Source: Eledone cirrhosa (lineage: Eukaryota). From it: 64,000 nucleotides of DNA. The stretch is from NCBI GenBank assembly GCA_964016885.1, contig OZ024747.1, positions 26,350,001 to 26,414,000 of the forward strand, written 5' to 3'. Made by a program: the position numbers and the translations under genes. The notes under the pieces were generated by a model, which had not been told where the DNA came from, did not search any database, and saw nothing but the letters and a program-made list of their open reading frames with translations. This document shows, piece by piece, positions 17,974 to 64,000 of this stretch (position 1 is its first letter; every line of letters starts with the position of its first letter).

Positions 17974-18041
<68 letters not shown>
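17974..18041. repeat. (TAA)n microsatellite at the left edge of the retrotransposon array
   Basis: About 22 pure AAT units immediately before the first element. Confidence 0.95.
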
Positions 18042-21000
18042 GGGAAGAAGACGCACGAGGTGACGGAGGTCATGAAATCGCTCCCGTAAGTTTTGAATTT
18101 TTAACATATTTAAATCATTTGTGAAATAACAACTCTTAGTACAAATGCTACGTAAAGCACCCGGCTTGAGCCCCAAAAAATTCGGACCCAAAATATATTG
18201 TTATAAGGCTCAAATATTCAAATATTCAACTTTGTATTGTACACTGTATATCCAAAAAAAAATGGCTATAAATGGAAGAAGAAGAACCCCCCCCCCTCCT
18301 CTCCTCTGGCTACACTATATAGGACAGCTAAACTCACCAACACCAGAAACTAGATACACCACCCACCCCATCATCTGTGTACACTAAACACAACAGCATT
18401 TTCACCTTCACCGCCACCGCTCACTACGGCCATCATTACCACCACTATCCCATCACCGCCGCCACCACCCCTTGACTCCTTCACTGCTGCTGCCACCGCT
18501 ACAGCACCATCACTACAGTAATACGGCTCAAATATTCAAATATTCAACTTTGTATTGTACACTGTATATCCAAAAAAAAAAAAATAAAAAAAAAAAATGG
18601 CTATAAATGGAAGAAGAAGAACCCCCCCTCCCCTCCTCTCCTCTGGCTACACTATATAGGACAGCGAAACTCACCAACACCAGAAACTAGATACACCACC
18701 CACCCCATCATCTGTGTACACTAAACACAACAGCATTTTCACCTTCACCGCCACCGCTCACTACGGCCATCATTACCACCACTATCCCATCACCGCCGCC
18801 ACCACCCCCTGACTCCTTCACTGCTGCTGCCACCGCTACAGCACCATCACTACAGTAATACGGTCGCATCACCGCCACCACTGCCTCGGTATCGACATCA
18901 CCACCACCACTGTCTCAGTATCGCCAACGCCGCCAGTCTCTGCTGGCTACCACTTCCACATTATAGAATTCCTACTACTAACAAAGAGAAAGGCATCAAA
19001 ATATATAGATAGACTCAAAAGAAAAAAGAAAAAACAAACAACAAAAGCAGCACAGCAACAACAGTAAAAAACGAGAAAAACAGAGAAAAACAAAAACAAA
19101 AAAAAGAAACCCCAAAAACGTAAAGAAAATAAGAATGAAGAGAGAAGCAGGCGGACGGACAGAGAAGAGGGGGGAAAAAGTAAAACTTAAAAAACAAAAA
19201 CTAAGTCAGACATTCGAATACTACATTACAATGAAACTTATGCTTATTCATTTTTGGGGCCCTTTCTGCCCGTGTGTTTGTTTGTTTATGTGTGTCCGTA
19301 TACAGCGTGGTGATAATGCCACACAAGGGCCAAGTGGGATGGCGGATCCACAGATGGCTATGTAAACATACATTCGCCAATCCTCGATAAGAGTGTTTAA
19401 ATATCGAACATAAACAGTTCGAATAACGGTGAAATGGAGACTAGAACGTCATGTGACAGACTCTCACCCAACAGGTGCCCCCTGGCTCAGCAGCAGGAAC
19501 CTGACTGTCAACCAAATACTGCTGATGTTGGAGGAAGAAGAAGAAGGAAAGGGGCCAGAACCAACTGGACGAAAGAATTGAATAGAACTGTTATGCAATG
19601 CTACCTGAAAAGTAACCCCAAGGAGAGGGGCTACAGGAGACGGATGCATAACATCTGGAACGAGATTGGTTTATTTAAATTAGATGAACAAAAATTGGCC
19701 GGGCAGGCTCGGGTAATAAGAACTAATGGGTGGATAAGCGAGCTGGAACTGGAGGAACTGAGCAGAGAGAATGGCTTGGAGATGGCGGGTGTAGTATGCC
19801 AGACAAGCGAGCCGGCGGGAAATGAAGGTGAGGAGGTCCTGAGAACGGAGGAACCACCCGAAGCAGACAATGATCTGAATACTGAGATAAATAATACCTG
19901 GAACAGAGATACGGCCACTGAGGAGATGAATGCTGACGGGCTAGGACAAGATTCGGTTGACATCCTAAATTTAGTGGTAGATGAGTTGAACAATGATAGT
20001 GGGAGACCTATGAACCTAAGATTTGTAGACAGGAAAAAGTTAAAAGAAACAACAGCTAAGGTAAACAAAGTCATCCCATACCTTGAGGCGAGGAGTCTTC
20101 ACCAGTGCAACAATATCCTCAAAGCAACAGCAAATACGGTGAGGAAACTACTTGGTTTAAAAGCGAGAGGAAACAACAGACAAGAAAGAGCAGAGCCGTG
20201 GTGGAAGAAGCGACTGAGTGGGCAAATCGGGGAAATGAGAAATGACATAGGAAAGCTTGAGTCACTACTGAATGGGACACTAAAAAACATAGGCACTAAA
20301 AATAGACTGGAAATAAAATACAAAACTAGGAGTAAAAAGCTAAATATTATCATAGAGGAATTGAAGCAACGCATTGTAGCAAAGAGTGCCAAAATCAGGC
20401 GATACGAGAACAGAGTCAGTCAGTATAAACAGAACCGCATGTTCGACAACAAACAGAAGATGCTGTTTGGACAGCTTGAGGGGAAAGAAAGAGGCAACGA
20501 CTTGATCCCTGGGGCGGAACAAGCTAAAACATTCTGGAGAGGAATATGGGAGCAGGATGTTAGACACAATGCCCAGGCAGGGTGGATTGAGACAGTACAG
20601 AGGGAGATCGGTGAGCAGGCACAGCAACAGACTGATTTGAGTATCACAGTTGAAACTCTTAAGGGGCAAGCCAAAAAACTAACCAACTGGAAATCACCAG
20701 GCCCAGATGGTGTGCAGGGGTATTGGATTAAACATTTAACATCCCTCCACCCGAAGCTGACGGCCATGTTCAATGACTGCTTGGTGTCGGGTGAGGTGCC
20801 AGAGTGGTTGACAAAAGGTACCACAGTTCTGATAATGAAAGACCGAATCAAGGGTAATGATGTTACCAACTATAGACCTATCACATGTCTGCCCGTAATG
20901 TGGAAACTGTTGACGAGCATTGTGTCTGAGGAAATCTACCATCACCTCCACACAAACAACTTGTTGCCGGACGAACAGAAAGGATGCCGAAAGAAGTCAC

Positions 21001-22899
21001 GTGGTACAAAGGACCAGTTGCTTATTGATAAGATGGTAATGGGGAATTGCAGGAGGAGACACACTGATCTTGCCATGGGATGGATAGACTACAGAAAGGC
21101 ATTTGACATGGTGCCTCATTCCTGGATCACCAAAAGCCTGGAGATCTTCAGGGTGGCAGATAACATCAGACAGTTGCTGGGCAGGAGTATGGGGTCCTGG
21201 GAGACAGAGTTGACATCAACTGGAGTATCCTTGGGAAGCGTGAAGATCAAGAGAGGTATCTTCCAGGGAGATAGCCTGTCCCCTCTGTTGTTTGTCCTTG
21301 CCCTGATGCCCTTGACCATTATGCTGCGAAAAGTGAGAGCAGGATACAAGTTGGGAAGGGGAGAGCTTACCATCAATCACCTCCTCTTCATGGACGATCT
21401 TAAGCTCTTCGGGAAAAGTGAGAAGGAGTTGGATGTGCTTGTTGACACTGTCCGTATTTTCAGCAGTGATATATGTATGCAGTTTGGTATTGGTAAATGT
21501 GGAGTCATTGTGATGAGGAGGGGTAGGTTGAGCAGAAGTAACGGGATCCAGATACCAACAGGTGAGATGATAAAGGAAATTGACTCTGAGGAAGGATACA
21601 AGTATTTGGGCGTTCTGGAGGCTGATGGCATAAAGAACAAAAAAATGAAGGAATTGTTAAGAACTGAATACATTCGGAGAGTAAGGAGCGTATTGAAGTC
21701 ACATCTGAACAGCAGAAATGCCATAAGCGCAGTAAATTCCCGAGCTGTGTCTATTATTAGGTACAGTGCGGGAATTCTGAGATGGAATGTTGCTGAACAA
21801 AAAGAAATGGATAGGAAGACTAGGAAGCTATTGACTATCTACAACATGTTCCACAAGAGGAGTGATGTCGATAGACTCTACCTAAGGAGATCTGAGGGTG
21901 GAAGAGGTCTTATCAGCATAGAGGACTGTGTTCAGATGGAGAAAAACAACCTATACAAATACGTGACCTATAGTAAGGAGCCAATGCTCAGAGCTGTACT
22001 GAAGGAGGGGACAGTAGGCCAGGGGATACCCAAGGAGGAAATAACATCAAGGAGGAAGAGCAGCCTTAAGGGAAAATCCCTTCATAGTACCTTCTTTGAG
22101 AAAACTGAATTTAGAGATCCACAGACATGGAACTGGTTGAGAAGAGGAGACCTCAAAAAGGCTACAGAAGGAATGCTAATGGCTGCGCAGGAGCAGGCCC
22201 TCAAAACGAAGTGGTTGAAGCACCATATCTACAAGGAGGAGGCTAGCCCACTGTGCAGGATCTGTGGAGAGAGAGAGGAGACTGTGGCTCACATTGTGTC
22301 CGAGTGTAAACGCCTAGCCAGACCCACTATAAGGGCTGGAGACACGATGTGATGGGCAGGGTGATCCACTGGCACCTGTGCAAAGTAAACAATCTACCAC
22401 ATTCTGAGAAATGGTATGAGCATAGGCCAGAGGCGGTGATGGAGAACAGTCAGGTGAAGGTGCTGTGGGATTTTAGGATACAGACGGACAAAAAACTGGA
22501 ACACAATAGACCTGACCTGGTGGTTGTGGACAAAGAAAAAAGATCGTGCCTGATTGTGGATGTGGCCTGCCCGTTCGACACGAGAGTGCAAGAGAAGGAG
22601 AGGGAGAAAATTAACCGATACCAGGACCTAAAGTGGGAGGTGAAAAGGATTTGGAACTGCCATGAAGTCAAAGTGATCCCGATTGTCATAGGCGCACTGG
22701 GGACTATCTCCAAAGGTTTCCAGGCATGGTTAAAGAAAATCGGCCCCTTCACGCTTTTTGGAACGCTTCAAAAGGCATGCTTGCTTGGAACGGCAAGAAC
22801 CCTCCGATACGTCCTGAATATCTGAGGCTGCAGGTAGTGGCTTGATATTCAATCCAACGGACTTTCCAGTTAACCAACATCAATGACTGAGATTCAAGG
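18042..22899 (+). mobile_element. R4/Dong-clade non-LTR retrotransposon family A, copy A1 (with leader; frameshifted)
   Basis: Leader plus single ORF 19434-22825 with RT (QGDSLSP, FMDD), CCHC finger and RLE (RHD, RPDLVVVD). Ends in an AATAACAATAAC(AAT)n tail. Confidence 0.92.
19434..22825 (+). pseudogene. Family A RT-RLE ORF, 1-nt deletion near 22317
   Basis: ctagccagacc vs ctagcccagacc in the intact copy splits it into 972-aa and 158-aa ORFs. Confidence 0.9.
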
Positions 22900-22937
22900 A
22901 ATAACAATAACAATAATAATAATAATAATAATAATAA

Positions 22938-25900
22938 GGAGACGGATGCATAACATCTGGAACGAGATTGGTTTATTTAAATTAGATGAACAAAAATTGG
23001 CCGGGCAGGCTCGGGTAATAAGAACTAATGGGTGGATAAGCGAGCTGGAACTGGAGGAACTGAGCAGAGAGAATGGCTTGGAGATGGCGGGTGTAGTATG
23101 CCAGACAAGCGAGCCGGCGGGAAATGAAGGTGAGGAGGTCCTGAGAACGGAGGAACCACCCGAAGCAGACAATGATCTGAATACTGAGATAAATAATACC
23201 TGGAACAGAGATACGGCCACTGAGGAGATGAATGCTGACGGGCTAGGACAAGATTCGGTTGACATCCTAAATTTAGTGGTAGATGAGTTGAACAATGATA
23301 GTGGGAGACCTATGAACCTAAGATTTGTAGACAGGAAAAAGTTAAAAGAAACAACAGCTAAGGTAAACAAAGTCATCCCATACCTTGAGGCGCGGAGTCT
23401 TCACCAGTGCAACAATATCCTCAAAGCAACAGCAAATACGGTGAGGAAACTACTTGGTATAAAAGCGAGAGGAAACAACAGACAAGAAAGAGCAGAGCCG
23501 TGGTGGAAGAAGCGACTGAGTGGGCAAATCGGGGAAATGAGAAATGACATAGGAAAGCTTGAGTCACTACTGAATGGGACACTAAAAAACATAGGCACTA
23601 AAAATAGACTGGAAATAAAATACAAAACTAGGAGTAAAAAGCTAAATATTATCATAGAGGAATTGAAGCAACGCATTGTAGCAAAGAGTGCCAAAATCAG
23701 GCGATACGAGAACAGAGTCAGTCAGTATAAACAGAACCGCATGTTCGACAACAACCAGAAGATGCTGTTTGGACAGCTTGAGGGGAAAGAAAGAGGCAAC
23801 GACTTGATCCCTGGGGCGGAACAAGCTAAAACATTCTGGAGAGGAATATGGGAGCAGGATGTTAGACACAATGCCCAGGCAGGGTGGATTGAGACAGTAC
23901 AGAGGGAGATCGGTGAGCAGGCACAACAACAGACTGATTTGAGTATCACAGTTGAAACTCTTAAGGGGCAAGCCAAAAAACTAACCAACTGGAAATCACC
24001 AGGCCCAGATGGTGTGCAGGGGTATTGGATTAAACATTTAACATCCCTCCACCCGAAGCTGACGGCCATGTTCAATGACTGCTTGGTGTCGGGTGAGGTG
24101 CCAGAGTGGTTGACAAAAGGTACCACAGTTCTGATAATGAAAGACCGAATCAAGGGTAATGATGTTACCAACTATAGACCTATCACATGTCTGCCCGTAA
24201 TGTGGAAACTGTTGACGAGCATTGTGTCTGAGGAAATCTACCATCACCTCCACACAAACAACTTGTTACCGGACGAACAGAAAGGATGCCGAAAGAAGTC
24301 ACGTGGTACAAAGGACCAGTTGCTTATTGATAAGATGGTAATGGGGAATTGCAGGAGGAGACACACTGATCTTGCCATGGGATGGATAGACTACAGAAAG
24401 GCATTTGACATGGTGCCTCATTCCTGGATCACCAAAAGCCTGGAGATCTTCAGGGTGGCAGATAACATCAGACAGTTGCTGGGCAGGAGTATGGGGTCCT
24501 GGGAGACAGAGTTGACATCAACTGGAGTATCCTTGGGAAGCGTGAAGATCAAGAGAGGTATCTTCCAGGGAGATAGCCTGTCCCCTCTGTTGTTTGTCCT
24601 TGCCCTGATGCCCTTGACCATTATGCTGCGAAAAGTGAGAGCAGGATACAAGTTGGGAAGGGGAGAGCTTACCATCAATCACCTCCTCTTCATGGACGAT
24701 CTTAAGCTCTTCGGGAAAAGTGAGAAGGAGTTGGATGTGCTTGTTGACACTGTCCGTATTTACAGCAGTGATATACGTATGCAGTTTGGTATTGGTAAAT
24801 GTGGAGTCATTGTGATGAAGAGGGGTAGGTTGAGCAGAAGTAACGGGATCCAGAGACCAACAGGTGAGATGATAAAGGAAATTGACTCTGAGGAAGGATA
24901 CAAGTATTTGGGCGTTCTGGAGGCTGATGGCATAAAGAACAAAAAAATGAAGGAATTGTTAAGAACTGAATACATTCGGAGAGTAAGGAGCGTATTGAAG
25001 TCACATCTGAACAGCAGAAATGCCATAAGCGCAGTAAATTCCCGAGCTGTGTCTATTATTAGGCACAGTGTGGGAATTCTGAGATGGAATGTTGCTGAAC
25101 AAAAAGAAATGGATAGGAAGACTAGGAAGCTATTGACTATCTACAACATGTTCCACAAGAGGAGTGATGTCGATAGACTCTACCTAAGGAGATCTGAGGG
25201 TGGAAGAGGTCTTATCAGCATAGAGGACTGTGTTCAGATGGAGAAAAACAACCTATACAAATACGTGACCTATAGTAAGGAGCCAATGCTCAGAGCTGTA
25301 CTGAAGGAGGGGACAGTAGGCCAGGGGATATCCAAGGAGGAAATAACATCAAGGAGGAAGAGCAGCCTTAAGGGAAAATCCCTTCATAGTACCTTCTTTG
25401 AGAAAACTGAATTTAGAGATCCACAGACATGGAACTGGTTGAGAAGAGGAGACCTCAAAAAGGCTACAGAAGGAATGCTAATGGCTGCGCAGGAGCAGGC
25501 CCTCAAAACGAAGTGGTTGAAGCACCATATCTACAAGGAGGAGGCTAGCCCACTGTGCAGGATCTGTGGAGAGAGAGAGGAGACTGTGGCTCACATTGTG
25601 TCCGAGTGTAAACACCTAGCCCAGACCCACTATAAGGGCTGGAGACACATGTGATGGGCAGGGTGATCCACTGGCACTTGTGCAAAGTAAACAATCTACC
25701 ACATTCTGAGAAATGGTATGAGCATAGGCCAGAGGCGGTGATGGAGAACAGTCAGGTGAAGGTGCTGTGGGATTTTAGGATACAGACGGACAAAAAACTG
25801 GAACACAATAGACCTGACCTGGTGGTTGTGGACAAAGAAAAAAGATCGTGCCTGATTGTGGATGTGGCCTGCCCGTTCGACACGAGAGTGCAAGAGAAGG

Positions 25901-26200
25901 AGAGGGAGAAAATTAACCGATACCAGGACCTAAAGTGGGAGGTGAAAAGGATTTGGAACTGCCATAAAGTCAAAGTGATCCCGATTGTCATAGGCGCACT
26001 GGGGACTATCTCCAAAGGTTTCCAGGGATGGTTAAAGAAAATCGGCCCCTTCACGCTTTTTGGAACGCTTCAAAAGGCATGCTTGCTTGGAACAGCAAGA
26101 ACCCTCCGATACGTCCTGAATATCTGAGGCTGCAGGTAGTGGCTTGATATTCAATCCAACGGACTTTCCAGTTAACCAACATCAATGACTGAGATTCAAG

Positions 26201-26201
<1 letters not shown>
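22938..26201 (+). mobile_element. Family A copy A2, 5'-truncated inside the ORF, frameshifted near 25648
   Basis: Starts at aggagacggatg directly on the (TAA)n tail of A1. gacacatgtg vs gacacgatgtg. (AAT)n tail at 26202-26243. Confidence 0.92.
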
Positions 26202-26246
<45 letters not shown>

Positions 26247-26338
26247 TTTTAACATATTTAAACCATTTGTGAAATAACAACTCTTAGCACAAATGCTACG
26301 TAAAGCACCCGGCTTGAGCCCCAAAAAATTCGGACCCA

Positions 26339-28312
26339 AAATATATTGTTATAAGGCTCAAATATTCAAATATTCAACTTTGTATTGTACACTGTATATC
26401 CAAAAAAAAAAATGGCTATAAATGGAAGAAGAACCCCTCCCCTCCTCTCCTCTGGCTACACTATATAGGACAGCTAAACTCACCAACACCAGAAACTAGA
26501 TACACCACCCACCCCATCATCTGTGTACACTAAACACAACAGCCAGATAACGACACATTTTCACCTTCACCGCCACCGCTCACTACGGCCATCATTACCA
26601 CCACTATCCCATCACCGCCGCCACCACCCCTTGACTCCGCTACAGCACCATCACTACAGTAATACGGTCACATCACCGCCACCACTGCCTCGGTATCGAC
26701 ATCACCACCACCACTGTCTCAGTATCGCTAACGCCGCCAGTCTCCCACTTCCCTGCTGGCTGCCACTTCCACATTATAGAATTCCTACTACTAACAAAGA
26801 GGAAGGCATCAAAATATATAGATAGACCCAAAAGAAAAAAGAAAAAACAAACAACAAAACCAAAGCAGCACAGCAACAACAGCAAAAAACGAGAAAAACA
26901 AACAGAGAAAAACAAAAACAAAAAAAAGAAACCCCAAAAACGTAAAGAAAATATATTGTTATAAGGCTCAAAACGTAAAGAAAATATATTGTTATAAGGC
27001 TCAAAACGTAAAGAAAATATATTGTTATAAGGCTCAAATATTCAAATATTCAACTTTGTATTGTACACTGTATATCCAAAAAAAAAAAAAAATGGCTATA
27101 AATGGAAGAAGAACCCCTCCCCTCCTCTCCTCTGGCTACACTATATAGGACAGCTAAACTCACCAACACCAGAAACTAGATACACCACCCACCCCATCAT
27201 CTGTGTACACTAAACACAACAGCCAGATAACGACACATTTTCACCTTCACCGCCACCGCTCACTACGGCCATCATTACCACCACTATCCCATCACCGCCG
27301 CCACCACCCCTTGACTCCGCTACAGCACCATCACTACAGTAATACGGTCACATCACCGCCACCACTGCCTCGGTATCGACATCACCACCACCACTGTCTC
27401 AGTATCGCTAACGCCGCCAGTCTCCCACTTCCCTGCTGGCTGCTACTTCCACATTATAGAATTCCTACTACTAACAAAGAGGAAGGCATCAAAATATATA
27501 GATAGACCCAAAAGAAAAAAGAAAAAACAAACAACAAAACCAAAGCAGCACAGCAACAACAGCAAAAAACGAGAAAAACAAACAGAGAAAAACAAAAACA
27601 AAAAAAAGAAACCCCAAAAACGTAAAGAAAATATATTGTTATAAGGCTCAAAACGTAAAGAAAATATATTGTTATAAGGCTCAAAACGTAAAGAAAATAT
27701 ATTGTTATAAGGCTCAAATATTCAAATATTCAACTTTGTATTGTACACTGTATATCCAAAAAAAAAAAAAAAATGGCTATAAATGGAAGAAGAACCCCTC
27801 CCCTCCTCTCCTCTGGCTACACTATATAGGACAGCTAAACTCACCAACACCAGAAACTAGATACACCACCCACCCCATCATCTGTGTACACTAAACACAA
27901 CAGCCAGATAACGACACATTTTCACCTTCACCGCCACCGCTCACTACGGCCATCATTACCACCACTATCCCATCACCGCCGCCACCACCCCTTGACTCCG
28001 CTACAGCACCATCACTACAGTAATACGGTCACATCACCGCCACCACTGCCTCGGTATCGACATCACCACCACCACTGTCTCAGTATCGCTAACGCCGCCA
28101 GTCTCCCACTTCCCTGCTGGCTGCTACTTCCACATTATAGAATTCCTACTACTAACAAAGAGGAAGGCATCAAAATATATAGATAGACCCAAAAGAAAAA
28201 AGAAAAAACAAACAACAAAACCAAAGCAGCACAGCAACAACAGCAAAAAACGAGAAAAACAAACAGAGAAAAACAAAAACAAAAAAAAGAAACCCCAAAA
28301 ACGTAAAGAAAA
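26339..28312. repeat. ~680-bp tandem triplication within the A3 leader, with a 33-bp sub-repeat at the joins
   Basis: Near-identical segments offset by 680/681 bp (26523, 27203, 27884). aaaacgtaaagaaaatatattgttataaggctc is reiterated at the joins. Confidence 0.92.
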
Positions 28313-28616
28313 TAAGAGTGAAGAGAGAAGCAGGCGGACGGACAGAGAAGAGGGGGGAAAAAGTAAAACTTAAAAAACTAAAACTAAGTCAGACATTCGA
28401 ACACTACATTACAATGAAACTTATGCTTATTCATTTCTGGGGCCCTTTCTGCCTGTGTGTTTGTTTGTTTATGTGTGTTCGTATACAGCGTGGTGATAAT
28501 GCCACACAAGGGCCAAGTGGGATGGCGGATCCACAGATGGCTATGTAAACATACATTCGCCAATCCTCGATAAGAGTGTTTAAATATCGAACATAAACAG
28601 TTCGAATAACGGTGAA

Positions 28617-32009: not shown

Positions 32010-32083
32010 GGCTGCAGGTAGTGGCTTGATATTCAATCCAACGGACTTTCCAGTTAACCAACATCAATGACTGAGATTCAAGG

Positions 32084-32095
32084 AATAACAATAAC

Positions 32096-32185
<90 letters not shown>

Positions 32186-32274
32186 AAGAAGAAGAAGAAG
32201 AAGAAGAAGAAGAAGAAGAAGAAGAAGAAGAAGAAGAAGAAGAAGAAGAAGAAGAAGAAGAAGAAGAAGAAGAA
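32084..32274. repeat. Compound tail (TAA)n then (GAA)39
   Basis: TAA run to 32157 and GAA run 32158-32274. A similar tract lies at 36824-36957. Confidence 0.95.
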
Positions 32275-36823: not shown

Positions 36824-36864
36824 AATAACAATAACAATAATAATAATAATAATAATAAGAAGAA

Positions 36865-36895
<31 letters not shown>

Positions 36896-44359: not shown

Positions 44360-44401
<42 letters not shown>

Positions 44402-48400: not shown

Positions 48401-49060
48401 TGACCATATAATTTCAATGTGCAGTCCTATAGCTCCAACCGAATACCTAAACAGGCATGACAGAGCTGCACAATACATACATTGGATAATGTGTAAGCAT
48501 TTTGACCTGCCCCATCAAAAGAATTGGTGGGAGCATCAACCACCTCCCATACTTGAAAAAGATCACATCTCAATCTTGTGGAACTTTAGCATCCAAACAG
48601 ACCGAAAAATAGATGCAAATAGACCTGATATAATATTGAAGGACTTTAAAAAGACGGTATGCCTGCTGATTGATATGTCCGTTCCAATAGACAAGAATGT
48701 ATCTATAAAAACATTTGAAAAATTGAGCAAGTATAAGGACCTGGAGATAGAAATTGGAAAAATGTGGAAATTGAGAACTAAAACAATACCAATGGTTGTA
48801 GGCGCTCTGGGAATGATACCTAAGGGGTCTAATGATTACTTATCGCAAATCCCAGGAAACCCGCGTATAGGAGAAATACAAAAGATAGTACTAAGGAAGA
48901 TTCTGTCAATATAAGTACATCACAAGTCTAAACACACTAATGATGCATGTGTGAGTATGTATGTTCTTTCTTGAACATGGCGGACCTTGTTGTCTCTTGA
49001 GGTCACTGGTTGTGACTTGGTGATAACTCGTATGAACATAAAGCAAGATAAATGCAACTG
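45455..49060 (+). mobile_element. Family B copy B2, near full length, defective
   Basis: Probable ATG 45642 with a KWSREDNKEVLEAFY myb-like motif and a stop at 45909. An in-frame deletion near 47678 removes the YMDD region. A 21-nt deletion lies near 48890. (TAA)n tail 49061-49083. The 5' boundary is approximate. Confidence 0.88.
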
Positions 49061-49084
49061 TAATAATAATAATAATAATAATAT

Positions 49085-51931: not shown

Positions 51932-51952
51932 AATAATAATAATAATAATAAT

Positions 51953-54900: not shown

Positions 54901-55909
54901 TGATATGCGTTTTCCGCTGCCACACAGACCCTAAGGCTTTTTGTATTTGAGCCTCTGTGGCCCTTTCAACCCTACAGGATTTTGTGCTTACTGTACGGTA
55001 CGACCGTACAGTGCTGTTGGGTTTCGAAAAAATTTTCGGCTGCCTTGCAGATTGCTCGGTGTCCAGTTTTCGTCACCATCTTCTTTGCTTCCTGTAATTC
55101 CTCATTTGTTATAAGGATGGTTTCCAGGTTCTTTGCGATACCTGCAAACGAGATTAGTTTTTCTTTGTTGTTGTTGTTGTTGTCGTCGTCAGAGCTGCTG
55201 TTACTTTTGTTGTTGCTGCTGGTACTACGACTGCCGCCGCCGCTGTTGCTGTGGTTGTTGTTGTTGTTGTTGTTGTTGTTGCTGCTGCTGCTGTTGTTGT
55301 TGCTGTTGCTGCTAATGCTGTTGTTGTTTATGCTGCTGCTGATGCTGTTGCGGCTACTACTATTGTTTTCCTTGTCACTGTTGCTGCTGCTGATGTTGTT
55401 ATTACGGCTGCTACTGCTATTATTCATGACGTCAGACGAATGAAATGGGTTTTCGTATTTACCGCACACCCTTTCGTCGTTGTCGTCGTCGTGGAGAAAT
55501 GTTCCACGTTTTGCACGTGATTTTGGAAACTTTTTTCTTTACTGGCGTCGCTTGCGAAAGAGAAGGCGGAGGGGAGAGAGACACATTTAGAGAATGGAGA
55601 GAGAGAGACAATCTTCTCTCTGGTGTAGTGACGAATGAGGAAGAAGAAGACGGAATGAGTGGGAGTGACTTATGAAAATTCTTTTTTGTAGCCATGTTTT
55701 TTTTGGTTTAAAATAAATATTGGGCACAACACCCCAATAAGCGGTTATTTAACCCCGAAGGGCCAAATAACGGGCAGAAAGACCCCTCTCACGAGGAGGA
55801 GGGTGTTTTTGTCTACAATTTGGTTAAAGTTTTAAACAATTTACAATTGTTATAGCGGTTAAAATTTACTATACCTTACAGAGCCGAGCCTCCGTCAACC
55901 ATGGCATTC
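51953..55909 (-). mobile_element. Tx1-clade non-LTR retrotransposon copy T1 (both ends present, RT deleted, ORF1 frameshifted)
   Basis: Same termini as T2. APE domain ORF starts at 53502. A large internal deletion lies near 52222-52240. Flanked by (AAT)n on both sides. Confidence 0.9.
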
Positions 55910-55962
<53 letters not shown>

Positions 55963-56223
55963 TTTCTTTATTAACCACAAGGGTTTACATAAAGTAGACA
56001 TTAAGGACAGTGCAGGACAATGCAGGACGGTACAAATGGGCATTTCTGCGTGTAAAAAAAACAAAAACAGAGGATGTAACAAAAATAACAATGAAAATAA
56101 CAATGAAAAATTCCCCAATAGGGGGGAGACTTCGGAGGGACATTTGTGGAGAAAGCCCAGTAAAAAGCCACAATGACCCTGACCACCAAGGCAAGTGCCC
56201 TCTCCCAGTTTTCCACCTTTAGT

Positions 56224-59200
56224 TTACAGATATATACTCAGAGTCGGCCCATTCACTCGGGCCATTCTTGCTTCTCTCACCCATCTTTCAACAAAATGCT
56301 GGGAAGAGAGCACTTCCTTCTCTACTCTGATTTTCCTTTTCAAATGAAATTTGAAAAAGTCAATCAGAGCATCACCGAAGAGGTAAGTGCTCGTCTTCAG
56401 CCCTTTCAAACGTGTCCACCATACTATCTCTTTCGCCATGGCCACCAGACAGATAAAAACTGCCTGCCCTTCCCGGCTAAAGGAGGAGGGCGGGGCAATC
56501 CTCACGATAGACTCAGATGATAGCTGGATCCGTCCTAAACGCGACAGCAGGTGTTCGACATAAACCCACAAGTCAGCAATTTTCGGACACTGGACGAGTG
56601 CGTGCAGGACGGTTTCGTCGCCCTGCGCGCATCTCGGACATGCCCGGCTGACGGCACCTCCATGCCTGTAGAGTTTATCCCGAACTGGCAAGGCTCCTCG
56701 GTAGCACTGCCAGGCCAGAGATTTCTGGAAGTTGTCCATAGGCCCTGGCCCGAAAGTTCTTCCGAAGAGATTGGCTAGTTGATTTTCGTCGACGCCTAGA
56801 GTTTCCCCAAGTACGTCGTCGCTCTTCCCCTCCACTAATCCTCTATAGAACGCCGAGGTGGAGTTTCCACCGATCACATTGCCCGATTGGTCGAGGGCTG
56901 TGAGCGCCTGAAGACATTCCAGTCTCCAGGCGCTCCCTCTCGGTCTTCGCTTGACCCAGGACTGCAGCTCCGTCAAGGAAACGAGCTGGGGAAAAACGCG
57001 TCTAGCAAACGGCGACCACACCTGATCACCGTCGAGGAAGAGGTGGAGATGTCGTAGCCTGAGCGCGTGCCTGCGCATCATCAGCCACGGCATGCCCAGC
57101 CCTCCACGTAGCGGGTGTTGACAACAGATGGACCGCCTGACCATCGGAGCACGTCCCTTCCACAAAAAGCGAAAGAGCAAACGCTCCAGCGCAGTCAGGC
57201 GAGGCTTAGGACAAGGTACGACGGTTAGGCGGTAGCAGATGACAGACGCGATGTACGCGTTAGCCACCTCCGCTCGACCTTTCAGGGATAGCTTCCTCTC
57301 CGCCCATTTCTGGGTGAGAGAAGCCACCCTGCTCGTCACCTCGTCCCAGTTTTTGTCCGTCTGGAGGTCCGGACCGAACCAGACCCCTAGCAATTTAACC
57401 GGTCCGTCCGTCCAGCGCCCGACGACGCTGTTGGACGGCATGGACCTGCCTCTCCAGGTGCCGAGCTGCAGGCCCACTGACTTTTCCTGGTTGATCATTG
57501 CTCCTGTCACCGCTTCGTATTCTCTTAGTGTAGTGCCGATCGCCTCGATGTGTTTGGCGTTCGACACCACTACGGTGACATCGTCCGCATATGCTGACAC
57601 GGATCTTCCGCATCCTAGTTCGCGCGGGACTCCCCTCAACGTCCCCAGTTTGTGCAGTAATGGCTCGAGAGTCAATACGTACAAGAGGGACGAGAGGGGA
57701 CATCCTTGGCGGACCGAGCGCATGATGTTGAACGGTTCCGACAGGTGACCGTTCACTCTCACCACAGAGCAGATGTCGCTGTGCATGGCAGCGATCCAGC
57801 CTCTGAAGACGGGCCCAAAGCCAGCCGCCCTCAGGACTGCCGCTAGGTAACGATGGTCGACCCTATCGAAAGCTTTCGACTGATCTAAATTGATCAAGGA
57901 CCCACCCGTGCCAGGTTCCCTAGCTACCCTCTCTACGATGTATCGCATGAGGTGGAGGTTGTCGTGGATGGATCTGTCGGGAATGGCGCATGTCTGCGCC
58001 TCTCCCACCAGACCACCAACGACAAGCGCCAACCTCTTTGCTAGCACCTTGGCCAAAATCTTAAACTCTGTGTTTAGCAGAGTTATGGGCCGGAAATTGT
58101 CTATGTTATCCCCCTTGTTCGGATCCTTTCTCAGCAGTGCCACCGCTCCTCGGCTCACAGAACTGGGAATTCTCCCGTTCTGTTGCCAGTTGCAGTAGAC
58201 GTCCGCCAAGAGGCCTCCGAACAAGTCTGGCATCTGTACGTAAAGTTCATAGGGCAGACCATCCAAACCAGGCGATTTACCCCTTGTGCAGCCAGTCATT
58301 GCCTCCCGTACTTCAGCGGCTGTTATCGGCTTTTCGCAACACTTCGCCTCAGTGGCCGAGAGCCGCGGCAGTCCGTCGAGGTAGACACTAAAGTCCATCC
58401 CTCTACCCGGCCCCCCGCTGCCCCCGAACAGCTGAGCGAAGTGTCGCTGAAAAGCTTCACACATTTGCCCGGGATCGAGTAGCATGCGCCCGTCGTGGTC
58501 CACCAAAGACCGGATCGTGGCTTTGTTGCCACGACGCGCCTCCGCCACTCGGGCCCATTGAACGGCTTTCGTCCCCTCGTGTCTGAGAGCACGCACCCTA
58601 GCTCTGACAACGCAGCCTTCGTGCTTTGCATTGAAGAATTGGTCAAGGGCCAATTTCGCCGCAAGCACGTCGGTCGCAATGCCTTTGCTAAGCGCCTCGT
58701 CTAATTTTCTAACTAGTTCTCCCTCTGCTCTATTTTTCTCTATTGCTAAAGCCTTACTAAACCTAATCGATTCTATTCTAATCGCTCTTTTCAGAGCAAA
58801 CCACCACTTGTTGTTGACGATGGCCCCCGTCAACGCCCGCTTAACTAGTTCGCTAATCCGGTCTCTGTAGGCCTTGCGCGCTGGTAAGGACGCGTTTAGC
58901 TTCCAGTAGCCGGGTCCTCGTCTATGAAGCCTATCTAAGTCAAGCACACAGATCACGAATTTGTGGTCCGTGTAGCTGACTATCTTGAATTGTGGACAGC
59001 CTATGCTAGACCTATCTATTTCCCTACAAAATACTCTATCTAGATATGATCTGGATGACCCTATGGGGTTTGTCCAAGTCCACATTGGCACATTCGGGAA
59101 ATCCAATCGGTACCTGTCAGACAGTTCAAAACGCCTGAGCAGGTTGGTGAGGCTCTTGCACCCTCCACCCCTATCCGCTAATCCCACACAGTCCCAGCGT

Positions 59201-59643
59201 GCATCTAAGATCCCGTTCCAGTCGCCCACTAACACTAAAGAGCGGGACGTTCCAAGAAAGGTCTCCAGACGCCGGAAGAAATCAGGCCGCCCTGCTCCTG
59301 TCGGGGCATAGACGGCCACTAGCCTGAAAGCTTGCCCGTCTCCGCTGGTCACGTCCAGCACCACCAGCTTACCCTCTGGGTCCAGGAAGATGGCCCGTAT
59401 GGCGAGATCCAAACCTCTCCGAAAAAGCACAGCAACTCCTCCACCGGATCCAGGACGGCTGGGAGATGCGTACACATCGAAGCCGCCGAAGATCGGTGCG
59501 AAGGCCCGTGCTTCGGAGATTCTGGTCTCGCTGATGGCCACTACATCTATGTTTAGTGACCTGAGGTCGTTGAGCAGGTGACCCTGCTTCCATGACGACC
59601 CCAAGCCACGCGCATTTATGCTGCCTATTCTGAGTGAGGTCAT
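56224..59643 (-). CDS. Tx1-like ORF2, 1139 aa: APE endonuclease, RT and C-terminal Cys/His finger
   Basis: SINARGL, ISETR, VYAP, GDWN, LDRVF, TDH (APE); YWKLN; KSPGLDG, FRPITLLN, DQSKAFDRVDH, QGCPLS, YADD (RT); CPRC..ETVLH..QC. Confidence 0.95.
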   Translation of the reverse strand: MTSLRIGSINARGLGSSWKQGHLLNDLRSLNIDVVAISETRISEARAFAPIFGGFDVYASPSRPGSGGGVAVLFRRGLDLAIRAIFLDPEGKLVVLDVTSGDGQAFRLVAVYAPTGAGRPDFFRRLETFLGTSRSLVLVGDWNGILDARWDCVGLADRGGGCKSLTNLLRRFELSDRYRLDFPNVPMWTWTNPIGSSRSYLDRVFCREIDRSSIGCPQFKIVSYTDHKFVICVLDLDRLHRRGPGYWKLNASLPARKAYRDRISELVKRALTGAIVNNKWWFALKRAIRIESIRFSKALAIEKNRAEGELVRKLDEALSKGIATDVLAAKLALDQFFNAKHEGCVVRARVRALRHEGTKAVQWARVAEARRGNKATIRSLVDHDGRMLLDPGQMCEAFQRHFAQLFGGSGGPGRGMDFSVYLDGLPRLSATEAKCCEKPITAAEVREAMTGCTRGKSPGLDGLPYELYVQMPDLFGGLLADVYCNWQQNGRIPSSVSRGAVALLRKDPNKGDNIDNFRPITLLNTEFKILAKVLAKRLALVVGGLVGEAQTCAIPDRSIHDNLHLMRYIVERVAREPGTGGSLINLDQSKAFDRVDHRYLAAVLRAAGFGPVFRGWIAAMHSDICSVVRVNGHLSEPFNIMRSVRQGCPLSSLLYVLTLEPLLHKLGTLRGVPRELGCGRSVSAYADDVTVVVSNAKHIEAIGTTLREYEAVTGAMINQEKSVGLQLGTWRGRSMPSNSVVGRWTDGPVKLLGVWFGPDLQTDKNWDEVTSRVASLTQKWAERKLSLKGRAEVANAYIASVICYRLTVVPCPKPRLTALERLLFRFLWKGRAPMVRRSICCQHPLRGGLGMPWLMMRRHALRLRHLHLFLDGDQVWSPFARRVFPQLVSLTELQSWVKRRPRGSAWRLECLQALTALDQSGNVIGGNSTSAFYRGLVEGKSDDVLGETLGVDENQLANLFGRTFGPGPMDNFQKSLAWQCYRGALPVRDKLYRHGGAVSRACPRCAQGDETVLHALVQCPKIADLWVYVEHLLSRLGRIQLSSESIVRIAPPSSFSREGQAVFICLVAMAKEIVWWTRLKGLKTSTYLFGDALIDFFKFHLKRKIRVEKEVLSSQHFVERWVREARMARVNGPTLSIYL

Positions 59644-59678
59644 GTTTAAAATAGAGTGGAAAAGATGGGAAAGACCAC

Positions 59679-61772
59679 TTACCGTACTTTTGGTAGAGGA
59701 GGGATGGTTTTTACATCCCTTTTCACTTGATCGTCTGGTGAAGGGACCGTTGAATCGTCCCTTCGGCTGGTCGTCGGCTCTTCTAAGAGAATGTCTGAGT
59801 ATACTCTTCGATTGATGGTTCCTCCTAGGTCCCTGAAATCACCAACTGCGTTGGGGAATTTCGTTTTAATATTTGTGTATTGTTTCTGTGCTATTTTTAG
59901 CAGTCTTATGTTAGTTGGCGTTTTGATTGGTGCTGGTATTATGTAGTCCTGTTGTGAAATGTCTGTGTGTTCAATTATGTAAGTCATTAGTTTCTTGTTG
60001 TGTGTATTTATTGCCGTGCATTTGTTTTTCTGGGGGTGGGGTGTGGTTCTGCTATTTTCTTGTCGTTGTTGCTGGGTGTGTGTGTTTTGTTGTTGTGTTT
60101 GCGATGTTGGTGCTTGTGGTGGTGGTGTTGAAGGTGTTGTTGGCGGTGGGGTTGTCGCCGGTGGTGATGGTGGCGCTAGTGTGGGTGGTGATGGTGTTGG
60201 TGTTGTTGCTGCTGTGGGTCTCTTTGCAGTAGACTTTACCCTTTTCTCATTTCTTTCCTCACTTTTCAAAGGCGACGATGCGCTGCTTCTGCGTTTGTGC
60301 CTTCTTACGACCTTTTGCCATCTCTCTCCCACCTCACACTCCATGTCTGATTCTGTGAGGTCGGGGAGGGGTACCAACTCCACTCTTTCACTTGTTGTTG
60401 TTGGTGATGTTTGCACTGGAGTCTCTGTTGCAGCTGCATTTGGTATTGCTGTTGTTGTTGTTAGTATTTCCACTGCTGCTGCTGTTTTTGATTTCCGTGG
60501 AGTGGGTATGGGTGCCACGGGCCTATCGTTCCTGGTTGCCGCTTGTCCTGTTGCTGGTAGCCGTGGAGCCGGATTCGGAAGGAGGGGGGTTTTCTCCTTT
60601 CTCAGGGTCTTCTCGTTGCAGAAGGCCCTGAGGTGAGTCTTCGATCCACAGCGAAAGCATTTCGGGCGTTTGCCCTCAACACTTATGGGCAGTTGAGTGC
60701 CGTTATCGAAGTCTATCACATCCGGGATAGCTTCGATGCACTCCTGGTTGGTTTGGATTAGCATCTCAATGGAGGAGCCGACCCAATCTTCTCTTACTTT
60801 TTTCTGTACTTGCAGTACAGTTGTTTTGTCCTCGATTCCGACGAGGACAGACGCGGCCAGCCAAGAAGGGGTCATTCCGGGGGGGACGTGGGTCAGTTTG
60901 ACCCTCACAATTTTTTGCCCACAGTAGGAGGGCACCAACACCATTTCCTCGCTCCTTAGGGTCACTACTGATTGGGCCTTTGCCTCCTGGGGTGTGGCAA
61001 AAAGTACGTCTACGGTGGCATATTTTTTGCCTCGGGTGATGTGCGTTTTCCGCTGCCACACAGACCCCAAGGCTTTTTGTATTTGGGCCTCTGTGGCTCT
61101 TTCCACCCTACGGGATTTTGTACTTACTGTACGGTACGTGACCGTACAGTGCTCTTGGGTTTCGAAAAAATTTTTCGCTGCCTTGCAGATTGCTCGGTGT
61201 CCGTTCTTGGTCACCATCTTCTTCGCTTCCTCTAATTCCTCATTTGTTATGAGGATTGTTTCCAGGTTTTTCGCAATACCTGCAAATGAGATTGGTTTTT
61301 CTCTGCTGTTGTTGTTGTCGTCAGAGCTGCTGGTACTTTTGTTGTTGCTGCAGGTACTACGACTACTGCCTCCGCCGCTGTTGCTGTGGTTGTTGTTGGT
61401 GTTGCTGCTGCTAATGCTGTTGTTGTTTATGCTGCTGGTGATGCTGTTGCGGCTGCTACTGTTGTTTTCATTGTCACTGTTGCTGTTGTTATTACGGCTG
61501 CTACTGCTATTATTCCTGACGTCAGACGAATGAACTGGGTTTTCGTATTTCCCGCACACCTGTTTCGTCGCTGTCGTCGTCGTGGAGAAACCTTGCACGC
61601 TTTGCACGAGACTTTTCTTTTCTTTCGTCACTTGCGAAAGAGAAGGGAGGGAGAGAGACACATTTAAAGAAGGGAGGGAGAGAGACAATCTTCTCTCTGC
61701 TGTAGTGATGATTGAGGAAGAAGAAGACGGAATGAGTGGGAGTGACGTATGAAATTTCTTTTTCGTAGCCAT
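59679..61772 (-). CDS. Tx1-like ORF1 (gag-like, ~697 aa) with one CCHC knuckle and low-complexity S/N and T/P tracts
   Basis: The ATG of MATKKKF is conserved in T1. Zinc knuckle CFRCGSKTHLRAFC. The ORF ends 35 nt before ORF2. Confidence 0.85.
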   Translation of the reverse strand: MATKKKFHTSLPLIPSSSSSIITTAERRLSLSLPSLNVSLSLPSLSQVTKEKKSLVQSVQGFSTTTTATKQVCGKYENPVHSSDVRNNSSSSRNNNSNSDNENNSSSRNSITSSINNNSISSSNTNNNHSNSGGGSSRSTCSNNKSTSSSDDNNNSREKPISFAGIAKNLETILITNEELEEAKKMVTKNGHRAICKAAKNFFETQEHCTVTYRTVSTKSRRVERATEAQIQKALGSVWQRKTHITRGKKYATVDVLFATPQEAKAQSVVTLRSEEMVLVPSYCGQKIVRVKLTHVPPGMTPSWLAASVLVGIEDKTTVLQVQKKVREDWVGSSIEMLIQTNQECIEAIPDVIDFDNGTQLPISVEGKRPKCFRCGSKTHLRAFCNEKTLRKEKTPLLPNPAPRLPATGQAATRNDRPVAPIPTPRKSKTAAAVEILTTTTAIPNAAATETPVQTSPTTTSERVELVPLPDLTESDMECEVGERWQKVVRRHKRRSSASSPLKSEERNEKRVKSTAKRPTAATTPTPSPPTLAPPSPPATTPPPTTPSTPPPQAPTSQTQQQNTHTQQQRQENSRTTPHPQKNKCTAINTHNKKLMTYIIEHTDISQQDYIIPAPIKTPTNIRLLKIAQKQYTNIKTKFPNAVGDFRDLGGTINRRVYSDILLEEPTTSRRDDSTVPSPDDQVKRDVKTIPPLPKVR

Positions 61773-61985
61773 GTTTTTTTGTTTAAAATGAAATTTTGGG
61801 TACAAAACCCCAATAACTGGTTATTTAACCCCGAAGGGCCAAATAACGGACAGAAAGACCCCTCTCACGAGGAGGAGGGTGTCTTTATCAACAATTTGGT
61901 TCAAGTTTTAAACAATTTACAATTGTTTTAACGGTTAAAAATTACTATACCTTACAGAGCCGAGCCTCCGTCAACCATGGCATTC

Positions 61986-62031
<46 letters not shown>

Positions 62032-62145
62032 GGGAACAGCAAGAACCCTCCGATACGTCCTGAATATCTGAGGCTGCAGGTAGTGGCTTGATATTCATTC
62101 CAACAGACTTTCCAGTTAACTAACATCAATGACTGAGATTCAAGG
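62032..62145 (+). mobile_element. Family A extreme 3' fragment (A7, 114 bp) between two Tx1 copies
   Basis: Last codons plus the whole 3' UTR of family A, flanked by (AAT)n on both sides. Confidence 0.92.
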
Positions 62146-62178
62146 AATAATAATAATAATATTAATAATAATAATAAT

Positions 62179-64000
62179 GTTTTCTTTATTAACCACAAGG
62201 GTTTACATAAAGTAGACATTAAGGACAGTACAGGACAATACAGGTCGGTACAAATGGGCATTTCTGCGTGTAAAAAAACAGAGGATGAAATAAAATAACA
62301 AAGAAAAATTCCCCAATAGGGGGGAGACTTCCGAGGGACATTTGTGGAGAAAGCCCATTAAAAGACCACAGTGGCCCTGACCACCAGGGCAAGTGCCCTC
62401 TCCCAGTTTTCCACCTTTAATTTACAGACACATACTCAGAGAAGGCCCATTCATTCGGGCCATACTTGCTTCTCTCACCCATCTTTCAACAAAATGCTGG
62501 GAAGAGAGCACTTCCCTCTCTACCCTGATTTTCCTGAAAAAGTTAATCAGGGCATCACCGAAGAGGTAAGTGCTCGTCTTCAGCCCTTTCAAACGTGTCC
62601 ACCATACTATCTCTTTCGCCATGGCCACCAGACAGATAAAAACTGCCTGCCCTTCCCGGCTAAAGGAAGAGGGCGGGGCAATCCTCACGATGGACTCAGC
62701 TGATAGCTGGATCCGTCCTACACGTGACAGCAGGTGTTCGACATAAACCCACAAGTCAGCAATGCTCGGACACTGGACGAGTGCGTGCAGGACGGTTTCG
62801 TCGCCCTGTGCGCATCTCGGACATGCCCGGCTGACGGCACCTCCATGCCTGTAAAGTTTATCCCGAACTGGCAAAGCACCCCGGTAGCACTGCCAGGCCA
62901 GGGATTTCTGGAAGTTGTCCATAGGCCCCGGCCCGAAAGTCCTTCCGAAGAGATTGGCTAGTTGATTTTCGTCGACGCCTAGAGTTTCTCCAAGTACGTC
63001 GTCGCTCTTCCCCTCCACTAATCCCCTATAGAACGCCAAGGTGGAGTTTCCACCGATCACATTGTCCGATTGGTCGAGGGCTGTGAGCGCCTGAAGACAT
63101 TCCAGTCTCCAAGCGCTCCCTCTCGGTCTTCGCTTGACCCAGGACTGCAGCTCCGTCAAGGAGACGAGCTGGGGAAAAACGTGTCTAGCAAACGGCGACC
63201 ACACCTGATCACCGTCGAGGAAGAGGTGGAGATGTCGTAGCCTGAGCGCGTGTCTGCGCATCATCAGCCACGGCATGCCCAGCCCTCCACGTAGCGGGTG
63301 TTGACAGCAGATGGACCGCCTGACCATCGGAGCGCGTCCCTTCCACAAGAAGCGAAAGAGCAAACGCTCCAGCGCAGTCAGGCGGGGCTTAGGACAAGGT
63401 ACGACGGTCAGGCGGTAGTAGATGACGGACGCGATGTACGCGTTAGCCACCTCCGCTCGACCTTTCAGGGATAGCTTCCTCTCGGCCCATTTCTGGGTGA
63501 GAGAAGCCACCCTGCTCGTCACCTCGTCCCAGTTTTTGTCCGTCTGGAGGTCTGGACCGAACCAGACCCCTAGCAATTTAACCGGTCCGTCCGTCCAGCA
63601 CCCGACGACGCTGTTGGACGGCATGGACCTGCCTCTCCAGGTGCCGAGCTGCAGGCCCACTGACTTTTCCTGGTTGATCATTGCTCCTGTCACCGCTTCG
63701 TATTCTCTTAGTGTAGTGCCGATCGCCTCGATGTGTTTAGCGTTCGACACCACTACGGTGACATCGTCGGCATATGCTGACACGGATCTTCCGCATCCTA
63801 GTTCGCGCGGGACCCCCCTCAACGTCTCCAGTTTGTGCAGTAATGGCTCGAGAGTCAATACGTACAATAGGGACGAGAGGGGACATCCTTGGCGGACCGA
63901 GCGCATGATGTTGAACGGTTCCGAAAGGTGACCGTTCACTCTCACTACAGAGCAGATGTCGCTGTGCATGGCAGCGATCCAGCCTCTGAAGACGGGCCCA
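62179..64000 (-). mobile_element. Tx1-clade copy T3, 3' part (continues beyond the window)
   Basis: Open ORF2 C-terminal half to the stop at 62422 (QGCPLS, YADD, CPRC). 3' UTR and (ATT)n tail as in T2. Confidence 0.92.

What the first reader, a model, noticed from the sequence alone, without database searches (positions are those of the whole stretch)
17974..64000. A >46-kb self-renewing (TAA)n landing pad shared by three non-LTR families with two unrelated endonucleases
Seen: twelve elements or fragments (A1-A5, B1, B2, A6, T1, T2, A7, T3) abut one another. A (TAA)n tract lies at every junction (17974, 22900, 26202, 32084, 36824, 41509, 44360, 49061, 51932, 55910, 61986, 62146). Several copies are 5'-truncated exactly on the previous tail (A2, A3, B1, A6, A7). 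Known: Dong (R4 clade, restriction-like endonuclease) targets (TAA)n, and 5' truncation marks target-primed reverse transcription. Inference: each insertion regenerates a (TAA)n target in its own tail, so the locus grows as a polarised multi-family array. It resembles HeT-A/TART or SART/TRAS arrays but is built on an interstitial trinucleotide repeat. Young near-identical copies lie left and older decayed ones lie in the middle.
Basis: partly seen in the sequence, partly recalled or inferred. Interest (0 to 1): 0.9.

Follow-up and report, generated by a model that had tools for sequence, protein, structure and literature searches.

The report
Retrotransposon stacks grown on TAA repeats
Two unrelated kinds of jumping gene lie stacked end to end on short TAA repeats, one kind on each DNA strand; this 53-kb stack is a large example of a genome-wide pattern that likely feeds itself, because each insertion would leave two TAA repeats where there was one.

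Summary
The array is real but is not a special locus. It runs from 17,976 to about 70,980 (53 kb, closed at both ends) and holds 14 LINE copies or fragments. A and B encode a restriction-like endonuclease (Dong/R4-like) and lie on the TAA strand. T encodes an APE endonuclease (Tx1/L1-like) and lies on the TTA strand. Genome-wide there are at least 10,133 A, 3,840 B and 9,671 T tails against 77,251 (TAA)6+ runs. Stacking is normal: 21/30 A, 22/30 B and 17/30 T tails abut another element. Only 2 of 510 LINE ends face the wrong way. A tRNA-type SINE uses the same sites. Marked repeats show 12-18-bp target duplications plus 2-5 added units, so renewal comes likely more from target splitting than from the tail. 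Orientation is polarised; age is not (24 vs 21 junctions). A4 is an A5/A3 mosaic, likely from unequal crossover. A and B share a recently exchanged 5' head. Dong-on-TAA, Tx1-on-microsatellites and opposite-strand SART/TRAS arrays are known; I did not find a TAA-targeting Tx1 or dispersed RLE+APE stacks in the searched papers. New variant of a known kind.

The parts
17976..18041 (+). (TAA)22, left boundary tract between non-element DNA and A1
18042..22913 (+). A1, full-length Dong/R4-like element; 318-bp duplication in the 5' UTR, 1-bp deletion frameshifts the ORF
22914..22937 (+). (TAA)8 junction
22938..26203 (+). A2, 5'-truncated at about element position 1275, frameshifted
26204..26245 (+). 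(TAA)14 junction
26246..32097 (+). A3, lacks about 55 nt of head, 680-bp 5' UTR unit repeated; open 1130-aa ORF from 28617 (RT, CCHC, PD..D nuclease)
32098..32274 (+). (TAA)20(GAA)~39 junction
32275..36837 (+). A4, full length, one stop; mosaic (5' half like A5, 3' half like A3), likely unequal crossover
36838..36957 (+). (TAA)7(GAA)~34 junction, same unusual linker as before A4
36958..41522 (+). A5, full length, one stop
41523..41543 (+). (TAA)7 junction
41544..44359 (+). B1, 5'-truncated second RLE family; repeated abortive-priming-like sequence at its 5' junction
44360..44401 (+). (TAA)14 junction
44402..49060 (+). B2, full-length head (shared with A), about 350-bp deletion in RT, stop near N terminus
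49061..49081 (+). (TAA)7 junction
49082..51933 (+). A6, older A (about 6% from A1-A5), 5'-truncated, internal deletion
51934..51951 (+). (TAA)6 tail-to-tail junction A6/T1
51952..55911 (-). T1, Tx1/L1-like, about 2.1-kb internal deletion, 91% to T2
55912..55959 (+). (TAA)16 junction T1 head / T2 tail
55960..61987 (-). T2, full length; ORF1 (CCHC knuckle) and 1139-aa ORF2 (APE, RT, zf) both open
61988..62029 (+). (TAA)14 junction T2 head / A7
62030..62147 (+). A7, 118-bp 3' fragment of A
62148..62177 (+). (TAA)4 TAT (TAA)5 junction
62178..64000 (-). T3, 5'-truncated T (continues to 64,536; array continues to about 70,980 with A8, a SINE scrap and a divergent T-like copy)

Best explanation
This is one large member of a genome-wide class of dispersed stacks of non-LTR retrotransposons that sit in (TAA)n tracts, RLE-encoding A and B on the TAA strand and APE-encoding T (with a SINE) on the opposite strand, likely grown by repeated target-primed insertion that turns one tract into two. 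Shown: families, nucleases, fixed orientations, TAA at both ends, genome-wide stacking. Inferred: the A/B nuclease nicks the TTA strand and the T nuclease the TAA strand (T junctions fit a T/A nick: TAAT|GA at the tail, TTATT|G at the head). A 12-18-bp target duplication plus 2-5 tail units and 5' slippage adds repeat units, so a stack of n elements offers n+1 targets and grows in proportion to its size (Yule-like). Tracts beside elements are used about 1.7-2 times more than average tracts, likely because A leaves long pure tracts and insertions there are harmless. Unequal crossover between copies likely adds further units (A4 here).
For: Nucleases: A best matches R2 proteins in PDB, with CCHC and PD..D motifs; T ORF2 best matches L1 ORF2p, with Exo_endo_phos; A and T align only in RT, 26%. 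Targets: 29/30 A heads, 30/30 T heads, 30/30 A and 30/30 B tails (each set of tails includes the window's own copy) abut TAA. Orientation: 2 of 510 LINE ends at 366 junctions reversed. Stacking: 150/187 A and T tails on C1 1-44.6 Mb have a neighbour within 12 kb (random mean 18, max 38 in 2000); 89/98 adjacent pairs share the strand; four other regions, chosen from the hit lists, hold stacks of about 8-11 elements. Duplications: marked units on both sides of X2, L137 (A) and L292 (SINE); L276 and L311 keep TAG(TAA)4 of a host repeat after 2-5 added units. Tract gain: median 20 (n=32) and 16 (n=29) units 5' of young A against 10-12 (n=38) at ends facing unique DNA, p=2e-6. Enrichment: 31/97 A/B tails are followed by a T/SINE tail against 18% of all runs, p=0.0008; 9/28 tract sides in 590 kb of random stretches are element-bounded against 60/90 beside elements, p=0.002. 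A4 mosaic: 20:1 vs 3:17 informative sites, p=1e-7.
Against: No pre-insertion allele of the same locus was seen, so tract gain cannot be separated from choice of long tracts. Several marked tracts show no duplication (L263, L226, L028). Half of the random tracts (7/14) are free, so targets are not saturated and a plain equal-weight Yule model is too simple. No nuclease was assayed. Samples are small, drawn largely from C1, and many loci were picked by element ends. Junctions were not confirmed by long reads.
Confidence: 0.85

Rival explanations
1. A single special locus (piRNA cluster, centromere or subtelomere) that traps the three families.
For: At 14 LINE copies it is larger than any of 89 clusters in the first 44.6 Mb of C1 (at most 6 exact A/T tails against about 10 here).
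Against: Most copies genome-wide lie in stacks. The site is at 26.4 Mb of a 94-Mb contig, with no telomere-repeat runs in the window. A geometric model predicts roughly 10-100 stacks this large under assumed parameters.
Confidence: 0.04
2. Assembly mis-join of dispersed copies through TAA microsatellites.
For: Junctions lie in simple repeats; no long reads were available.
Against: No N in the array (nearest gap 23 kb further). 5' junctions carry microhomology and added bases typical of insertion. Orientation is fixed by family, and tract length depends on which neighbour is younger, which random mis-joins would not give.
Confidence: 0.04
3. Stacks arise mainly in single events, by the reverse transcriptase jumping from one RNA template to the next.
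For: The tandem pair X1/X2 88 kb downstream differs by only 0.10% and shares private variants; 19/64 dated junctions are ties.
Against: It cannot place T on the opposite strand; 45/64 junctions join copies of different age; X2 has its own target duplication.
Confidence: 0.07
4. Stacks grow mainly by unequal crossover or tandem duplication, not fresh insertion.
For: A4 mosaic with duplicated GAA linker; an 8.65-kb multi-element unit is duplicated at 98.6% in a C5 stack.
Against: Most neighbours differ in family, truncation point and age; A1, A2 and A3 carry different variant sets.
Confidence: 0.08
5. Insertion is equal among all TAA tracts, and stacks are over-represented only because insertions elsewhere are removed by selection.
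For: It would give the 1.7-2-fold enrichment without a targeting preference; many free tracts lie in other host repeats or are short.
Against: It still needs sequence-specific TAA targeting, so it changes only the enrichment step; young A copies already show long 5' tracts.
Confidence: 0.25

Closest known systems
Dong (Bombyx mori), DongAg, DongBg; R4 clade
   Same: Single ORF with RT, CCHC and restriction-like nuclease; TAA microsatellite target (PMC3812793 passage, which lists a snail member); Dong-R4 is abundant and recently active in Octopus vulgaris (PMC13282606).
   Different: No HDV-like ribozyme found at the A/B 5' end, whereas B. mori Dong has one (PMC3774820; weak test). A and B share a swapped 5' head. 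Stacking is the usual state here and is not mentioned in the passages read.
Tx1-clade microsatellite specialists Kibi (TC)n, Koshi (TTC)n, crocodilian Tx1 (TTCC/TTTC)n
   Same: L1-group APE elements inserted specifically in a microsatellite (PMC4494074 passages).
   Different: Target is (TTA)n/(TAA)n, shared with an RLE family; I found no such Tx1 in the searched papers.
SART/TRAS telomeric arrays of B. mori
   Same: Several families inserted in one simple repeat in opposite orientations, forming arrays (PMC10088271 passages).
   Different: Those are both R1-clade APE elements in telomerase-made repeats at chromosome ends; here RLE plus APE, interstitial, at many sites, with no telomerase supply of target.
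R1 and R2 in 28S rDNA (recalled)
   Same: An APE and an RLE lineage share one multicopy target.
HeT-A/TART/TAHRE (recalled; background in PMC10088271)
   Same: Head-to-tail multi-family arrays with 5' truncations.
   Different: Those attach at chromosome ends in one orientation with an age order; here internal insertion, both orientations, no junction-level age order.

Membership tests
Dong / R4 clade (A, B) | Single ORF with RT, C-terminal CCHC finger and PD..D restriction-like nuclease, no APE | tested here: met
   A3 1130-aa ORF; RVT_1; CRICG..H..SEC and RPD..D motifs conserved in the 14 of 27 aligned rows printed; best PDB hits R2. B shows the same motifs, 34-42% identical to A.
Dong / R4 clade (A, B) | Insertion in (TAA)n, same orientation | tested here: met
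   29/30 heads, 60/60 tails; 31/53 unnamed relatives with a 3' flank also end in TAA.
Dong / R4 clade (A, B) | RT phylogeny groups with named Dong/R4 | not testable with these tools
   No named reference sequence came from any call; the clade name rests on anatomy, target and recall.
Dong / R4 clade (A, B) | 5' HDV-like ribozyme (shown for B. mori Dong and R4) | tested here: inconclusive
   No Rfam hit and no hit of my own descriptor, which had no positive control.
Dong / R4 clade (A, B) | Short target-site duplication (about 13 bp for R4, recalled) | tested here: inconclusive
   12-18 bp inferred in 2 marked A insertions; other marked cases show none.
Tx1 clade, L1 group (T) | ORF1 with zinc knuckle plus ORF2 APE-RT-zf of the L1 group | tested here: met
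   ORF1 CX2CX4HX4C; ORF2 Exo_endo_phos, RVT_1, zf-RVT; best PDB hit L1 ORF2p 6e-52.
Tx1 clade, L1 group (T) | Sequence-specific target, no poly(A) tail | tested here: met
   30/30 heads abut (TTA)5-15; 3' end runs into (TTA)n.
Tx1 clade, L1 group (T) | RT phylogeny groups with named Tx1 rather than L1 proper | not testable with these tools
   Homologues unnamed.
SART/TRAS or HeT-A/TART telomeric arrays | Chromosome-end location in telomeric repeats | tested here: not met
   26.4 Mb into a 94-Mb contig; no TTAGG or TTAGGG runs in the window.
SART/TRAS or HeT-A/TART telomeric arrays | Families on opposite strands of one repeat | tested here: met
   2/510 reversed ends.
piRNA cluster | Source of piRNAs | not testable with these tools
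   No RNA run was listed.

The most novel reading that the evidence does not exclude
A guild of unrelated retrotransposons (RLE and APE, plus a SINE) builds and renews a large share of this genome's long TAA microsatellites, trades promoter heads inside the stacks, and, because the two classes face opposite ways, turns thousands of dispersed stacks into self-growing dual-strand piRNA sources in which each class silences the other: a transposon sink made by the transposons themselves.
Probability: 0.2. Interest if true: 0.8.

Novelty: new variant of a known kind. Interest (0 to 1): 0.52.

Why it matters
It gives a concrete mechanism for some TE hotspots in large repeat-rich animal genomes: a target that multiplies when used. 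It adds a likely TAA-specific Tx1 lineage that converges on Dong's target from the other strand, a natural pair for comparing RLE and APE specificity, with intact young copies of both (A3, T2). It names a likely partner LINE for an abundant tRNA-type SINE. It shows 5'-head exchange between two RLE families whose proteins are only 34-42% identical. It also warns that repeat annotation and dating should treat such copies as stacks, with some made by recombination.

Tried and rejected
Rfam scan of the array: only two chance hits. Own HDV descriptor on five 5' regions: 0 hits, no positive control. ARAGORN: no tRNA. DNA search with the T 3' end returned nothing because common words are skipped; the pattern count replaced it. 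Age polarity (young left, old right): seen in the window and by eye in several other stacks, but 24 left-younger vs 21 right-younger vs 19 ties over 64 dated A/T junctions, p=0.77; rejected as a rule, and these junctions are biased by picking young anchors. The binomial test on '11 of 24' used a wrong hand count and is discarded; one search replaces it (31/97; strict locus count 14/47, p=0.04). Sequencing runs: no RNA holder listed. Short-read contigs of four runs laid on 17200-18560 stop at the repeats and neither confirm nor refute the left junction. AlphaFold of the A N-terminus: pLDDT 44, unusable. Cluster look-up and Atlas gave no clade names. Earlier findings: none. Not held: PMC309301 and PMC307436 (Dong and R4 originals). 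Supplements of PMC4494074 unavailable; its target tables, Kojima and Fujiwara 2004 and Repbase may already list a TAA-targeting Tx1.
Full report
Observation. The window is G000:C7:26,350,001-26,414,000 of a 3.0-Gb genome, on a 94-Mb contig. From recalled likeness of its SINE and repeats the animal is probably an octopod; no call tested this. Neighbouring stretches show that the array ends near 70,980: T3 to 64,536, an older A (A8), a SINE scrap and a T-like copy 77% identical to T2. It is 53 kb with 14 LINE copies or fragments. The nearest assembly gap is 23 kb beyond it.

The families. A3 has one open 1130-aa frame with RT, a CCHC finger and a PD..D nuclease; its best solved relatives are R2 proteins. 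B has the same anatomy and is 34-42% identical to A. T2 has an ORF1 with a zinc knuckle and an ORF2 with APE, RT and zinc finger, best matching L1 ORF2p. A and T align only in RT (26%). No call returned a named Dong, R4 or Tx1 sequence, so these clade names rest on anatomy, target and recall.

Genome-wide picture. Exact tail motifs occur 10,133 (A), 9,671 (T) and 3,840 (B) times; these are lower bounds. Runs of six or more TAA number 422,170 - 344,919 = 77,251; 14,111 are followed by a T-class or SINE tail. TAA abuts 29 of 30 young A heads, 30 of 30 young T heads and all 60 A and B tails examined. In position-ordered samples 21/30 A tails, 22/30 B tails (one doubtful hit counted as free) and 17/30 T tails abut another element. 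Of 187 A and T tails in the first 44.6 Mb of C1, 150 have a neighbour within 12 kb (random mean 18), and 89 of 98 adjacent pairs share the strand. Four other regions, picked from the hit lists, hold stacks of about 8-11 elements. At 366 junctions only 2 of 510 LINE ends are reversed. Further T-like heads and a 193-bp tRNA-type SINE, in T's orientation and with a similar 3' end, use the same tracts. The window's stack is unusually large but is the same kind of object.

How targets are renewed. Host repeats with imperfect TAA tracts give empty and filled versions. An A copy 88 kb downstream (X2) has TAACGACAACAACAA on both sides; L137 repeats a TAT mark on both sides; a SINE (L292) repeats a TTA mark; L276 and L311 keep TAG(TAA)4 of the host repeat after 2-5 added units. 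This points to a 12-18-bp duplication and a short element-supplied tail. Other marked cases (L263, L226, L028) show no duplication. Tracts 5' of young A copies are long (median 20, n=32 heads; 16, n=29 truncated) against 10-12 at ends facing unique DNA (n=38) and 7 for free tracts (n=23); p=2e-6. This means gain at insertion or choice of long tracts; the data do not separate the two. T junctions (TAAT|GA, TTATT|G) fit an L1-type T/A nick on each strand (inference). A stack of n elements thus offers n+1 targets and would grow with its size. Targets are not saturated: 7 of 14 tracts in 59 random 10-kb stretches are free, three of the 14 coming from one stack. Tracts beside elements are used more than average: 31/97 vs 18% (p=0.0008) and 60/90 vs 9/28 sides (p=0.002). 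Tract length, purity or selection may explain this.

Second growth route. A4 matches A5 in its 5' half (20:1 sites) and A3 in its 3' half (3:17), p=1e-7, and the (GAA)34-39 linker lies before both A4 and A5. That is the expected product of unequal crossover between A3 and A5. A C5 stack has an 8.65-kb multi-element unit twice, at 98.6%.

Polarity. Orientation is fixed. Age runs young-left to old-right among the A copies here (A1-A5 0.5-1% apart, A6 and A8 about 6%), but over 64 dated junctions left-younger and right-younger are 24 and 21, so it is not a rule.

Heads. A and B share their first 110 nt at about 90% and 385 nt at 76%, far above their ORF similarity, which indicates recent exchange. 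A and T heads share a weaker motif around CGCTCCCGTAAG (score 47, 0/1000 shuffles; AT-rich, a lead only). No HDV-like ribozyme was found, though B. mori Dong has one (PMC3774820, passages); my test lacked a positive control.

Generality. Among 79 metagenome loci of A relatives, 31/53 with a 3' flank end in TAA and 17/34 with a 5' flank begin in it. Of those with readable flanks, 6/23 tails (7 called, one a TAA self-match) are followed by another copy and 3/8 heads are preceded by a tail. These are short-read contigs and may be collapsed, but Dong-type stacking is probably not confined to this genome.

Known versus new. Dong on TAA, including a snail member, is known (PMC3812793, passages). Tx1 specialists for TC, TTC, TTCC and TTTC are known (PMC4494074, passages; supplements unavailable). 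SART and TRAS insert in opposite orientations at telomeres (PMC10088271, passages). Dong-R4 and L1-Tx1 are recently active in O. vulgaris and TE hotspots are reported without a mechanism (PMC13282606, parts 1-2 of 3); PMC9115989 and PMC8967140 (passages) mention Dong without targets or arrays; PMC4640811 (passages) gives background. Ten searches showed no TAA-targeting Tx1 and no dispersed RLE+APE stacks, but the library lacks the key subscription papers and Repbase.

Verdict. Observation confirmed; interpretation partly supported. It works like a SART/TRAS array without a telomere, built by a Dong-like and a Tx1-like lineage on a target that likely multiplies when used. New variant of a known kind; interest 0.52.

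Noticed in passing
window 18042-18430, 44402-44790; L023, L030: A and B share a 5' head far more similar than their ORFs; hybrid (L023) and third (L030) head variants exist, suggesting promoter exchange.
   Followed up: partly
window 18042-18150 and 61880-61987 (-); L188, L060, L053: RLE and APE heads share a motif around CGCTCCC-GTAAG (splice-donor-like) 30-45 nt from the 5' end, followed by an AT-rich stretch; possibly a common host promoter signal.
   Followed up: partly
L076, L107, L122, L292; window 45345-45411: A 193-bp tRNA-type SINE lies in T's orientation with TAA on both sides and a 3' end like T's (CCTTGTG...AGAAA); T is its likely partner LINE. A piece of it sits in B's 5' UTR.
   Followed up: partly
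L209; C7 at window coordinates 179,418-182,810: A sister Tx1-like family (about 72% to T) ends in (TATC)n instead of (TTA)n and lies in tandem in L209: a second microsatellite stack system.
   Followed up: partly
L202, L174, L179, L307: T-beta: ORF2 about 94% identical to T but a different 5' UTR and ORF1, suggesting a 5' module swap.
   Followed up: partly
G000:C5:83.23-83.25 Mb (L312-L313): A chimeric element with a B body and an A 3' end lies inside an 8.65-kb tandemly duplicated unit.
   Followed up: partly
C7 at window coordinates 157,761-163,620: Tandem A pair X1/X2, 0.10% apart, inserted in a host repeat with a marked tract; gave the clearest target duplication.
   Followed up: yes
window 32158-32274, 36859-36957; L075, L152: GAA runs before A heads may start by slippage on the head's GAAGAAG.
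   Followed up: no
L370, L399, L432: Some A relatives in other organisms start with a tRNA-like head by eye, hinting at Pol III promoters.
   Followed up: no
window 2549-2863, 5293-5960, 12281-13330, 13332-13794, 17137-17776: 56-bp tandem repeat; CAG/CAA-rich 60-bp repeat; 80-bp satellite; tandem SINE copies with (TATTA)n tails; a high-copy MITE-like inverted repeat just left of the array.
   Followed up: no
window 18054-18236: Contigs from a run of a second organism label (X5) match the A head with no difference over 183 bases.
   Followed up: no
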